Below, in pieces: positions 54,601-57,600 of a stretch of DNA of 64,000 bases. The DNA is from Escherichia coli (GTDB taxonomy: Bacteria; Pseudomonadota; Gammaproteobacteria; Enterobacterales; Enterobacteriaceae). The position numbers are program-made. Within the stretch, counting starts at the first letter, position 1. The number at the start of each line of letters is the position of its first letter. Where the stretch lies: assembly GCF_044647545.1 (NCBI RefSeq), contig NZ_CP172818.1; one strand, written 5' to 3'.

Positions 54601-57600
54601 ACAGGCAAACAATACCGCTACCGTGGCGAATGGTCAGCGCCATCTGCTCAACGGTCATGGTTTCTGCCGGGAAGATCATATCGCCTTCGTTTTCACGGTC
54701 TTCATCATCAAGCACCATTACACCGCGTCCTTCACGCAGCGCAGCCAGTGCATTTTCAACACGTTCGAAAGGCGTACCAAAAGAGGAAAGTAGCGTCTGA
54801 TTCATGGTAAAAAAACCTCACTAAAATTATGGTTACCAGAATCAGGGCAGTCTTAGGAGTGGCGGCATATAGCCAAAATAACGTGAGCGGGTCCATGCCC
54901 GACAGAATCGTTACTCTCTCCCATCCGGACTCTAACCGTCGGCCCCGGAATTACACCGGATCTGCTGTCCTTTGAGTTCGCACCCAAAGCGCTCGCGGGC
55001 TTTCAACTGAGTTGATTTACCGCCGGTGGGGAATTTCGCCCCGCCCTGAGAATAAGCGGATTCACTATAACGCTAATGATTAGCGGCAGCAACGCATAGC
55101 TTCACATAATTCTGGTTTATGACTTACCCTTATCGCACTACAATGGCACTCAACACCTATCAGTACAGGGAAACTACAATGATTGACCCGAAAAAAATTG
55201 AGCAAATCGCTCGCCAGGTTCACGAATCAATGCCTAAAGGAATCAGGGAGTTCGGGGAAGATGTGGAGAAAAAAATCCGCCAAACCCTACAAGCGCAGCT
55301 GACGCGTCTCGATCTGGTAAGCCGCGAAGAATTCGACGTTCAGACGCAAGTCCTGTTACGGACTCGTGAAAAACTGGCGTTACTGGAGCAGCGCATCAGT
55401 GAACTGGATTTGAAAAAACCAACACAAAAACGGGCCAGACGGCCCGTAATATCAGTGTTCTAATTCAAGTTCTCTGGTTTGCATCATTTGTTGGCAATAC
55501 CAGGCATAACGTGCGCAAAACCAGGTTCTATGTTCTTCATCCATGTTACCAGTAACGGCCAGAATATCGACCGGGCGACCTTCTGCGTGCATTCTGGCAA
55601 AACTACGCGCCAGGAAATCGAAATTATTTAAAGAATTAAGACTATGATCCATAAGCACATCCTCCGGTTATCGCATACCTTTTAAGGCCATATGCTTTTT
55701 CTGATTTCAGTATTCCCCAATCAGTGTAGTGCCTTTAAACATAACGTGCGTAAATATATTGTCCCCGATCACACTTTTTAGTGAAAAATAAAAAACCATA
55801 TTAAAAGACTTTCTCTTCCAGAACTTCTCTAACATGTGTTATTATTAACAAAGATAAATGTAAGCAAGGAAACTATCCTAAAGTAAATATTGCGTCACTA
55901 AATGGACATTGGAGTGACATATGATTTTATTCGCCGACTATAACACCCCTTATCTTTTCGCTATTTCCTTTGTACTGTTGATCGGCCTTTTAGAAATTTT
56001 TGCGCTTATCTGCGGTCACATGCTCTCCGGTGCACTTGATGCACATCTTGACCATTATGATTCCATAACCACAGGTCATATTAGCCAGGCACTTCATTAT
56101 CTCAATATCGGAAGATTGCCAGCTCTCGTCGTTCTTTGCTTACTGGCTGGTTTTTTTGGTCTTATTGGCATCCTGTTGCAGCATACCTGCATCATGGTCT
56201 GGCAATCACCACTCTCGAACCTGTTTGTGGTTCCTGTCAGTTTACTGTTTACGATTATTGCGGTGCATTATACCGGTAAAATAGTTGCGCCCTGGATTCC
56301 ACGCGATCATAGCTCAGCTATTACAGAAGAAGAATATATTGGTAGCATGGCGTTAATTACCGGTCATCAAGCCACTTCAGGTAATCCCTGCGAAGGAAAA
56401 CTCACCGATCAATTTGGCCAAATACATTATTTACTACTGGAGCCTGAAGAAGGAAAAATTTTCACTAAAGGAGACAAAGTGTTAATTATTTGCCGACTTT
56501 CTGCAACTCGATATTTGGCGGAAAACAATCCCTGGCCCCAAATATTGTAATTTATTAATCAAAAGGAAATTTAATAATGGATGATATTGTTAATTCTGTG
56601 CCCTCCTGGATGTTTACCGCGATTATTGCCGTATGCATTCTGTTTATTATTGGAATTATTTTCGCCAGGCTCTATCGTCGCGCTTCGGCAGAGCAAGCTT
56701 TTGTTCGTACTGGTTTAGGTGGGCAAAAAGTGGTAATGAGCGGTGGCGCAATCGTGATGCCGATCTTTCATGAAATAATCCCCATCAATATGAATACTCT
56801 GAAGCTGGAAGTCAGCCGCTCAACCATTGATAGCCTGATTACGAAAGATCGTATGCGCGTCGATGTCGTTGTCGCTTTCTTTGTGCGGGTAAAACCGTCA
56901 GTGGAAGGTATTGCCACCGCCGCCCAGACGCTGGGGCAACGCACCCTGTCGCCTGAAGACTTACGTATGTTGGTTGAAGATAAATTTGTCGATGCCCTCC
57001 GTGCAACAGCTGCACAAATGACCATGCATGAGTTACAGGATACCCGCGAGAACTTCGTGCAGGGCGTACAAAATACCGTTGCTGAAGATCTGTCGAAAAA
57101 CGGCCTGGAACTGGAAAGCGTTTCACTTACCAACTTTAACCAGACGTCGAAAGAACATTTCAATCCTAACAACGCCTTTGACGCCGAAGGTTTAACCAAG
57201 CTGACGCAGGAGACGGAGCGCCGTCGTCGCGAACGTAACGAAGTTGAACAGGATGTAGAAGTTGCGGTGCGTGAGAAAAACCGTGATGCACTTTCGCGCA
57301 AGTTGGAGATTGAACAACAAGAAGCGTTTATGACGCTTGAGCAGGAGCAGCAGGTTAAAACCCGTACCGCTGAGCAGAATGCGAAAATTGCGGCTTTTGA
57401 AGCTGAACGTCGTCGTGAAGCAGAGCAGACGCGAATTCTGGCTGAACGACAGATTCAGGAAACGGAAATCGACCGCGAACAGGCCGTCCGTTCCAGAAAA
57501 GTTGAAGCTGAACGTGAAGTTCGCATTAAAGAGATCGAACAGCAGCAGGTCACCGAAATCGCCAACCAGACGAAATCGATCGCTATTGCCGCCAAATCGG

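What the first reader, a model, noticed from the sequence alone, without database searches (positions are those of the whole stretch)
54830..55060. FMN riboswitch in the ribB leader
Conserved aptamer blocks are visible on the minus strand upstream of ribB (GGGGCGAAATTCCCCACCGGCGGTAAA … CCGGATGGGAGAG). This is expected biology but is an RNA feature not captured by the ORF track.
Basis: partly seen in the sequence, partly recalled or inferred. Interest (0 to 1): 0.25.

Follow-up and report, generated by a model that had tools for sequence, protein, structure and literature searches.

The report
Known E. coli ribB FMN riboswitch
This is the well-studied vitamin-B2-sensing RNA switch (FMN riboswitch, also called sroG) in front of the E. 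coli riboflavin gene ribB, identical in sequence to the laboratory strain K-12, so it is real but ordinary.

Summary
The observation and the interpretation are both correct. The Rfam FMN model RF00050 hits window 55057-54909 (minus strand) over its full length at 120.9 bits (gathering score 66.2, E 1.1e-27). Both quoted motifs occur once each, at 55042-55016 and 54928-54916. The gene 104 nt downstream (54805-54152) is RibB. The locus is in 5425 of 5426 complete E. coli genomes at >=99% identity, and RefSeq annotates "FMN riboswitch" on exactly this span. Promoter, leader and first ten codons (425 nt) are 100% identical to K-12 MG1655, the sequence used in the published experiments. The finding's range stops at 54830, so it misses the Shine-Dalgarno sequence and the 3' strand of the start-site sequestering stem; the functional unit runs from 55057 to about 54797. 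An alignment of 29 ribB leaders shows compensatory changes in the aptamer, near-total invariance of both sequestering-stem strands (including synonymous sites of codons 2-3), and a covarying hairpin just upstream of the published pause sites. The published mechanism is that FMN closes P1, the start site is sequestered, and Rho terminates transcription. Equilibrium folding does not reproduce the switch, but a transcript-length series matches the published co-transcriptional sensing window. Already known; low interest.

The parts
55087..55092 (-). candidate -35 hexamer TTGCTG of the ribB promoter
   Evidence: Read from the sequence: TTGCTG, 17 nt spacer, TATAGT, then 6 nt to +1. Inferred only: the consensus scan did not list it because the -35 matches only 3 of 6.
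55064..55069 (-). candidate -10 hexamer TATAGT
   Evidence: Sequence. Its position fits a +1 at 55057. Inferred.
55057..55057 (-). transcript position +1 in the published numbering
   Evidence: With +1 = 55057 the AUG falls at nt 253-255 and ten codons end at nt 282. That is the 282-nt full-length construct of PMC11571811.
54909..55057 (-). FMN aptamer (RFN element), helices P1-P6, nt 1-149
   Evidence: RF00050 at 120.9 bits, full model. RefSeq 'FMN riboswitch' covers the same span. Covariation in the aptamer helices.
55048..55055 (-). P1 5' strand, nt 3-10 (UUAUUCUC)
   Evidence: Pairs with nt 140-147 over 8 bp. 98.2% of cells paired in 29 species.
54911..54918 (-). P1 3' strand, nt 140-147 (GAGAGUAA)
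   Evidence: It is the target of RNase H probe 137, which FMN protects (PMC11571811).
54888..54901 (-). expression-platform hairpin, nt 157-170 (CGGG CAUGGA CCCG)
   Evidence: All 4 pairs show changes on both sides, and 83.6% of cells are paired against 25-52% in slid controls. It ends 5 and 11 nt upstream of the published pause sites 175 and 181. A role in pausing is my inference.
54875..54883 (-). anti*-P1 3' strand, nt 175-183 (CGUUAUUUU), pairs with nt 141-149 in the FMN-free state
   Evidence: 9-bp complementarity with two G-C pairs, as published. Present in the unconstrained MFE. Comparative support here is weak: 80.5% paired, not above shuffles.
54838..54867 (-). C-rich, G-poor stretch, nt 191-220 (12 C, 5 G): candidate Rho-loading region
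   Evidence: Largest C-minus-G excess in the leader. Nt 180-214 are more often unpaired when P1 is enforced (0.55 against 0.39). Probe 184 becomes more accessible with FMN. The assignment as rut is inference plus literature.
54842..54848 (-). anti-P1 3' strand, nt 210-216 (GCCCUGA), complementary to nt 9-15 (UCAGGGC)
   Evidence: Perfect 7-bp G+C-rich complement. It forms in the MFE of the 1-235 nt transcript. 100% of cells paired in 29 species. It overlaps the sequestering stem's 5' strand by 4 nt.
54823..54845 (-). sequestering stem, 5' strand, nt 213-235
   Evidence: Pairs 213-219/255-261, 220-225/248-253 and 230-235/239-244. Outer 13 bp are 99.2% paired in 29 species. Nt 210-225 are 99% identical in 25 Enterobacterales. 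FMN protects nt 215-227.
54797..54819 (-). sequestering stem, 3' strand, nt 239-261: covers GAGG of the SD, the AUG and codons 2-3
   Evidence: Nt 248-263 are 100% identical in 25 Enterobacterales. Codons 2-3 are AAT CAG in 29 of 29, while codons 4-10 vary at synonymous sites.
54816..54821 (-). Shine-Dalgarno GUGAGG, nt 237-242
   Evidence: Sequence, with 10 nt between GAGG and the AUG.
54152..54805 (-). ribB coding sequence (3,4-dihydroxy-2-butanone-4-phosphate synthase, 217 aa), the regulated gene
   Evidence: ORF. TIGR00506 at 287.7 bits. RefSeq ribB.
54090..54121 (-). terminator-like hairpin plus U-run after ribB
   Evidence: Consensus scan: 13-pair stem followed by ATTTTT, 31 nt after the stop codon.

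Best explanation
This is the E. coli ribB FMN riboswitch (RFN element, Rfam RF00050, also catalogued as sroG). It is a cis-acting 5'-leader RNA on the minus strand that turns off ribB, the first committed enzyme of the ribulose-5-phosphate branch of riboflavin synthesis, when FMN is plentiful. Transcription starts at about 55057. Nt 1-149 fold into the six-helix FMN aptamer. With FMN bound while the polymerase is still within about nt 150-210, P1 (nt 3-10 with 140-147) closes. Nt 213-235 are then free to pair with nt 239-261, burying the Shine-Dalgarno sequence, the AUG and codons 2-3, so translation does not initiate. The untranslated C-rich leader becomes accessible to Rho, which terminates transcription early. 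Without FMN, both P1 strands are captured by competing helices. The 3' strand is taken by anti*-P1 (nt 141-149 with 175-183). The 5' side is taken by anti-P1 (nt 9-15 with 210-216), which uses part of the sequestering stem's 5' strand, so the start site stays open and ribB is made. What is shown here: identity, architecture, gene context, complementarity and conservation of every helix, covariation in the aptamer, and a length-dependent cost of closing P1. What is taken from the literature on the identical sequence: FMN binding, RNase H protection, pause sites and Rho dependence. What I infer: the exact anti-P1 pairing, the rut location, and a pause-hairpin role for nt 157-170.
For: RF00050 full-length hit at 120.9 bits against 66.2, E 1.1e-27. 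Motifs unique. RibB immediately downstream on the same strand. RefSeq 'FMN riboswitch' on the identical span, and the locus present in 5425 of 5426 complete E. coli genomes at >=99% identity. 425 nt 100% identical to K-12 MG1655, so published data apply directly: K_switch 176 nM at P1 and 206 nM at the sequestering stem, 23 nM at EC-175 and about 7.7 uM at EC-247, anti*-P1 mutants (PMC11571811), and a Rho termination score of 3.1 with loss of control in rho R66S (PMC5499598). Deleting the element raises ribB mRNA and riboflavin (PMC9885008). In 29 ribB leaders, 93.5% of cells are paired against 38-53% in slid controls, 17 pairs change on both sides, and all 13 pairs of the two variable distal helices are compensatory. 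The sequestering stem is 99.2% paired and anti-P1 100% paired. Nt 210-225 and 248-263 are 99-100% conserved while nt 184-198 is 39%, and codons 2-3 are invariant at synonymous sites. The only changes in the shared segment 213-216 are transitions (A216G in 5 species, C213U in 1) that keep pairing in both alternative helices. The ensemble cost of closing P1 is 0.2 kcal/mol at 150 nt, 1.0 at 163, 11.6 at 235 and 6.4 at 282. That is the same rank order as the published affinities EC-175 > full length > EC-247.
Against: Full-length equilibrium folding predicts the sequestering stem whether or not P1 is enforced, with P(unpaired) of the SD at 0.43 in both. Simple thermodynamics therefore does not reproduce an ON state, and the switch has to be kinetic (co-transcriptional, possibly ribosome-coupled). 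The whole-leader MFE is not more stable than shuffles (z = -0.63). The sequestering stem and anti-P1 are supported by invariance, not by compensatory change. Some of that invariance could come from the aptamer core (nt 9-15), from the conserved Met-Asn-Gln N-terminus, or from ribosome-binding requirements. Covariation for anti*-P1 is not above the shuffle control, and the alignment is unreliable there in distant species. FMN binding and Rho action cannot be tested with these tools.
Confidence: 0.96

Rival explanations
1. The same FMN riboswitch, but acting through an intrinsic (Rho-independent) terminator as in Bacillus subtilis ribD. The covarying hairpin nt 157-170 followed by the U-rich run nt 177-183 would be the terminator.
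For: A conserved G+C-rich hairpin with compensatory changes is followed by UUAUUUU in E. coli and by up to 7 U in Citrobacter and Enterobacter. A stable leader fragment (sroG) is known by that name in the literature.
Against: The terminator scan finds nothing in the leader. The stem has only 4-5 pairs and the U-run starts 6-7 nt after it, too far for a canonical terminator. The U-run is the anti*-P1 3' strand. [quoted passage not shown]
Confidence: 0.03
2. A purely translational riboswitch, in which the drop in ribB mRNA with FMN is only a secondary effect of lost translation (Rho or RNases acting on naked mRNA inside the ORF) and not direct exposure of a rut site in the leader.
For: The sequestering stem is the most conserved feature of the expression platform. 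An indirect mechanism of this kind was shown for thiM (PMC5499598). My rut assignment rests only on base composition.
Against: The literature assigns ribB to direct control, with termination sites mapped in the expression platform (Hollands 2012 as cited). Nt 180-214 become more single-stranded when P1 is closed, and probe 184 becomes more accessible with FMN.
Confidence: 0.1
3. Besides acting in cis, the terminated leader (SroG, about 150-250 nt) works in trans as a small RNA on other targets.
For: The element carries an sRNA-style name (sroG) in the literature. Rho termination in the leader would release such a fragment.
Against: Every conserved block is explained by cis-regulatory helices.
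Confidence: 0.05
4. A chance resemblance or a decayed, non-functional aptamer.
For: None.
Against: E 1.1e-27 over the full model, compensatory changes across 29 species, conservation in 5425 of 5426 genomes, and identity to an experimentally active sequence.
Confidence: 0.005

Closest known systems
E. coli K-12 ribB FMN riboswitch / sroG (Rfam RF00050; Hollands 2012, Pedrolli 2015 and Bastet 2017 as cited in PMC11571811; Eschbach 2024, PMC11571811)
   Same: Everything. 425 nt including promoter, aptamer, expression platform and the first 10 codons are 100% identical, with the same gene downstream and the same divergent neighbour, ubiK.
   Different: Nothing in the element itself. Only the wider neighbourhood differs: this window has glgS directly after ubiK, where K-12 has ygiL and a fimbrial operon.
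Bacillus subtilis ribD (ribDEAHT) FMN riboswitch
   Same: The same aptamer family and ligand, the same logic (FMN bound means OFF), and kinetic, pause-assisted co-transcriptional sensing.
   Different: B. subtilis uses an intrinsic terminator/antiterminator. Here there is no intrinsic terminator in the leader, and the output is SD/AUG sequestration plus Rho-dependent termination.
E. coli thiM, thiC and tbpA TPP riboswitches
   Same: Translational OFF switches with anti-P1-type competitors, a pause near the start codon that bounds a sensing window, and Rho-dependent reduction of mRNA.
   Different: A different aptamer and ligand. For thiM, Rho acts indirectly after translation is blocked, whereas ribB is described as exposing a rut site directly.

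Membership tests
FMN riboswitch (RFN element, Rfam RF00050) | Covariance-model score above the curated gathering threshold over the full model | tested here: met
   120.9 bits against 66.2, E 1.1e-27, model 1-138 of 138, not truncated.
FMN riboswitch (RFN element, Rfam RF00050) | Six-helix architecture (P1 closing a junction with five hairpins) maintained by base pairing across species | tested here: met
   In 29 ribB leaders 93.5% of cells are paired against 38-53% in slid controls. 17 pairs change on both sides, including 2 pairs in P5 and all 13 pairs of the variable distal helices. The single non-standard pair G68-A92 is invariant and is also flagged as non-canonical in the Rfam alignment.
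FMN riboswitch (RFN element, Rfam RF00050) | Conserved junction nucleotides (AGGGC..., ACCGGCGGU, GCCCGCGAGC, CAGCAGA, CCGACGGU, AGUCCGGAUGGGAGA) | tested here: met
   All are present in the window and invariant or nearly so in the 29-sequence alignment.
FMN riboswitch (RFN element, Rfam RF00050) | Located in the 5' leader, same strand, of a riboflavin biosynthesis or transport gene | tested here: met
   The aptamer ends 104 nt before the ribB AUG on the same strand. The same arrangement holds in about 30 gammaproteobacterial and alphaproteobacterial loci.
FMN riboswitch (RFN element, Rfam RF00050) | Binds FMN specifically | not testable with these tools
   Published for the identical sequence: K_switch 176 nM (P1 probe) and 23 nM at EC-175 (PMC11571811). 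Sequence identity shown.
SD-sequestering (translational OFF) expression platform of proteobacterial ribB leaders | A helix that pairs the SD/AUG region with an upstream segment, plus an alternative pairing of that segment with the aptamer | tested here: met
   Sequestering stem 213-235/239-261 is in the MFE, and the outer 13 bp are 99.2% paired in 29 species. The alternative helix 9-15/210-216 is a perfect 7-bp complement, 100% paired. Support is from invariance, not compensatory change.
SD-sequestering (translational OFF) expression platform of proteobacterial ribB leaders | SD/AUG accessibility depends on whether P1 is closed | tested here: inconclusive
   Equilibrium folding gives the same SD accessibility (0.43) with P1 enforced or blocked. 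The length series does show that closing P1 becomes costly only after nt ~175-235 are made, consistent with a kinetic switch. Experimental protection of nt 215-227 by FMN is published.
Rho-dependent riboswitch attenuation (ribB / mgtA type) | Ligand-dependent Rho termination within the leader | not testable with these tools
   Literature only: Rho termination score 3.1 and loss of control in rho R66S (PMC5499598). Here there is only a C-rich, G-poor stretch at nt 191-220 that is more exposed with P1 closed, and no intrinsic terminator.

The most novel reading that the evidence does not exclude
The Rho-terminated leader released in the FMN-bound state (SroG) might also act in trans on other transcripts, as some terminated SAM riboswitches do in Listeria. 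A more modest alternative is that the covarying hairpin at nt 157-170 is a conserved, so far unnamed pause-hairpin module that sets the FMN-sensing window. Nothing here excludes either reading, and nothing here supports the trans-acting one.
Probability: 0.05. Interest if true: 0.45.

Novelty: already known. Interest (0 to 1): 0.08.

Why it matters
For the genome scan, this is a correct call of a textbook element that an ORF track does not show, but standard annotation pipelines already mark it (RefSeq has it at the same coordinates). The element matters in its own right. It controls riboflavin supply, it is a validated antibacterial target (roseoflavin, ribocil), and it is a model for Rho-coupled and co-transcriptional riboswitch control. 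This window adds nothing new to that picture. The small comparative points found here are confirmations and refinements of published models, not discoveries: synonymous-site invariance of ribB codons 2-3, transitions that preserve both alternative helices, and a covarying hairpin upstream of the pause sites.

Tried and rejected
1. Equilibrium folding of the full 282-nt leader with P1 enforced or blocked, to reproduce the switch. The sequestering stem formed in both and SD accessibility did not change. I rejected this as a test of the mechanism and replaced it with a transcript-length series.
2. The first comparative alignment (A2) used a fixed 5' offset from the 3' aptamer motif. That cut off P1 in species with longer variable-helix inserts. 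I re-anchored on the CAGGGC junction and realigned (A3).
3. The consensus promoter scan did not report the ribB promoter because the -35 matches only 3 of 6. The promoter hexamers given are read by eye and marked as inferred.
4. An intrinsic terminator in the leader was considered and rejected (geometry of hairpin 157-170 and the U-run).
5. Covariation support for anti*-P1 was sought but is not above the controls, so I rely on the published mutational data for that helix.
6. Small ORFs overlapping the leader (54756-54896 minus, 54853-54987 minus, 54829-54975 plus) were regarded as mechanical ORFs inside a structured RNA and were not pursued.
7. The K-12 locus file was not visible to the Python sandbox, so I made that comparison with DNA alignment instead.

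Full report
**1. Observation.**
The minus strand of window 54000-55600 was read.

The Rfam scan of the whole window gives RF00050 (FMN riboswitch aptamer) at 55057-54909 on the minus strand. The score is 120.9 bits against a gathering score of 66.2, E 1.1e-27, covering model positions 1-138 of 138 without truncation.

**2. Context.**
The ORF starting 104 nt downstream on the same strand (54805-54152, 217 aa) is 3,4-dihydroxy-2-butanone-4-phosphate synthase RibB (TIGR00506, 287.7 bits against a cut-off of 177.45). The divergent upstream gene is ubiK, followed by glgS.

A 501-nt query across the leader matches 5425 of 5426 complete E. coli genomes at >=99% identity. RefSeq annotates 'riboswitch / FMN riboswitch' at L001 2644-2792, which maps to window 55057-54909, the same span as the Rfam hit.

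The 425 nt from upstream of the promoter to ribB codon 10 are 100% identical to K-12 MG1655. Published experiments on the K-12 ribB riboswitch therefore apply to this sequence without any extrapolation.

**3. Anatomy in published numbering.**
With +1 at window 55057, the AUG is at nt 253-255 and ten codons end at nt 282, the full-length construct of Eschbach et al. 2024 (PMC11571811). The conversion is window coordinate = 55058 - n. Promoter-like hexamers TTGCTG (55092-55087) and TATAGT (55069-55064), 17 nt apart, sit at the right distance from +1. These were read from the sequence and are inferred; the scan did not list them.

| Element | Transcript nt | Evidence |
|---|---|---|
| Aptamer | 1-149 | |
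| P1 | 3-10 with 140-147, 8 bp | |
| anti*-P1 | 141-149 AGAGUAACG with 175-183 CGUUAUUUU, 9 bp, two G-C | as published; appears in the unconstrained MFE on its own |
| Sequestering stem | 213-219/255-261, 220-225/248-253, and a weak inner helix 230-235/239-244 | covers GAGG of the SD, the AUG and codons 2-3 |
| Candidate anti-P1 | 9-15 UCAGGGC with 210-216 GCCCUGA, perfect 7 bp | forms in the MFE of the 1-235 transcript |

The anti-P1 candidate fits the paper's statement that in the ON state both ends of the aptamer are engaged in helices. It shares nt 213-216 with the sequestering stem.

No intrinsic terminator is detected in the leader. One lies after ribB at 54121-54090.

**4. Folding tests.**
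At equilibrium, the full-length leader is predicted to form the sequestering stem whether P1 is enforced or prevented. The probability that the SD is unpaired is 0.43 in both cases. The whole-leader MFE is no better than shuffles (z = -0.63). Plain thermodynamics therefore does not reproduce an ON state.

A transcript-length series is more informative:

| Transcript length (nt) | Ensemble cost of closing P1 (kcal/mol) |
|---|---|
| 150 | 0.2 |
| 163 | 1.0 |
| 175 | 2.0 |
| 215 | 10.1 |
| 235 | 11.6 |
| 282 | 6.4 |

Allowing for the roughly 12 nt held inside the polymerase, this reproduces the rank order of the published FMN sensitivities: EC-175 at 23 nM, full length at 176 nM, and EC-247 at about 7.7 uM. 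It supports a kinetic, co-transcriptional switch with a sensing window that closes once nt ~175-235 emerge.

With P1 closed, nt 180-214 are more often single-stranded (0.55 against 0.39). This agrees with the FMN-induced increase in accessibility of probe 184. Nt 191-220 are also the most C-rich, G-poor part of the leader (12 C, 5 G), a plausible Rho-loading region. That assignment is inference.

**5. Comparative test.**
One plain-DNA scan of the species-representative genome collection with the conserved 3' aptamer core returned 120 loci across many phyla. In about 30 of them the element lies 128-251 nt upstream of a RibB homologue.

I aligned 24 Enterobacterales leaders plus Vibrio, Pleionea, Thalassospira and one MAG to the window (A3). 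This followed a first attempt that truncated P1 in some species.

*OFF-state model:*
- 93.5% of cells are paired, against 38-53% when the partners are slid.
- 17 pairs change on both sides.
- All 13 pairs of the two variable distal helices, and 2 pairs of P5, are compensatory.
- The outer sequestering stem is 99.2% paired. Nine of its 13 pairs never vary and none is compensatory, so its support is conservation, not covariation.

*ON-state helices:*
- anti-P1 is 100% paired (invariant, or changed on one side only).
- GGGAG/CUCCU (136-140/199-203) is 94.5% paired.
- anti*-P1 is 80.5% paired, not above the shuffle control. This is in a region where the alignment is poor for distant species.

*Conservation profile in 25 Enterobacterales:*

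| Region (nt) | Mean identity to window |
|---|---|
| 184-198 | 39% |
| 210-225 | 99% |
| 226-247 | 75% |
| 248-263 | 100% |

Codons 2-3 are AAT CAG in 29 of 29 leaders, whereas codons 4-10 vary freely at synonymous sites. This indicates an RNA-level constraint on the first codons.

The only substitutions in the segment shared by the two alternative helices are transitions: A216G in five species and C213U in one. These preserve pairing with both partners, U9 and U258 for position 216, and G12 and G261 for position 213. That is what a bistable element predicts, though the number of events is small.

*Hairpin nt 157-170.* A short hairpin in the spacer (window 54901-54888) has changes on both sides at all 4 pairs, and 83.6% of cells are paired against 25-52% in slid controls. 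It ends 5 and 11 nt before the published pause sites 175 and 181. I infer that it may act as a pause hairpin. This is untested.

**6. Mechanism.**
The best-supported account is the published one. FMN binds the nascent aptamer within a transcriptional window and P1 closes. [quoted passage not shown] Rho terminates transcription in the leader.
- Rho termination score 3.1, with control lost in rho R66S: PMC5499598.
- The overall model: PMC11571811.
- Deleting the element raises ribB mRNA and riboflavin output: PMC9885008.

Rivals considered and given low probability are intrinsic termination at the 157-170 hairpin, purely indirect Rho action after translational block, a trans-acting role for the released leader, and a chance match. 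Details are in the rival explanations section.

**7. Comparison and novelty.**
The element is not merely a member of the FMN riboswitch family. It is the reference E. coli ribB riboswitch itself, base for base, and is already annotated in RefSeq. Every family-defining feature that can be tested computationally is met. FMN binding and Rho dependence rest on the literature for the identical sequence.

It differs from the B. subtilis ribD FMN riboswitch in output: SD/AUG sequestration plus Rho, with no intrinsic terminator.

Verdict: observation confirmed, interpretation supported, already known, low interest.

**8. Seen in passing.**
- A Sib antitoxin RNA and an ES173 sRNA elsewhere in the window.
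- The yqi fimbrial operon is absent between ubiK and glgS, compared with K-12.
- A 61-nt deletion at the 3' end of ubiK, relative to the closest complete genomes. It replaces the UbiK C-terminal tail and makes ubiK overlap glgS and its terminator. No complete E. coli genome matched this junction in one piece.

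Noticed in passing
window 55405-55470 (ubiK 3' end / glgS 3' end): Relative to the closest complete E. 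coli genomes (for example FDAARGOS_497), the window lacks 61 nt at the 3' end of ubiK and has several substitutions at the junction. The UbiK C-terminal tail is replaced: the ORF ends ...[21 protein letters not shown] at 55463. ubiK now overlaps glgS (stop at 55452-55454) by 12 nt and reads through the glgS terminator hairpin (55447-55430). No genome among 5426 matched the 201-nt junction query in one piece or at 100% identity. This could be a strain-specific deletion or an assembly error.
   Followed up: partly
window 55463-55660 compared with K-12 (L002 2341-3466): glgS follows ubiK directly here, as in O157:H7 PV15-279. In K-12 MG1655, ubiK is followed by ygiL and the yqi fimbrial operon. 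This looks like strain-variable presence or absence of a fimbrial gene cluster.
   Followed up: partly
window 58463-58615 (-): Rfam SIB_RNA (RF00113) at 126.8 bits against a gathering score of 56, full length. It is a Sib antitoxin sRNA of an ibs/sib type I toxin-antitoxin pair, downstream of yqiK.
   Followed up: no
window 26608-26671 (+): Rfam ES173 sRNA (RF02753) at 99.0 bits against a gathering score of 90, a near-perfect 64-nt match to the consensus.
   Followed up: no
window 54888-54901 (-), nt 157-170 of the ribB leader: A short G+C-rich hairpin in the otherwise poorly conserved spacer. It shows compensatory changes at all 4 pairs across 29 species and ends 5-11 nt upstream of the published pause sites 175 and 181. 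It may be a pause hairpin. It was not singled out in the paper sections read here.
   Followed up: partly
window 54797-54802 (-), ribB codons 2-3: AAT CAG is invariant in 29 of 29 ribB genes from Enterobacterales to an alphaproteobacterium, including the synonymous third positions, while codons 4-10 vary. This is an RNA-structure constraint (the sequestering stem) reaching into the coding sequence.
   Followed up: yes
window 53720-53914 (-): A small ORF between ribB and zupT corresponds to the annotated small protein YqiD (171 nt in RefSeq). The mechanical ORF list gives a longer, TTG-started 64-aa version.
   Followed up: no
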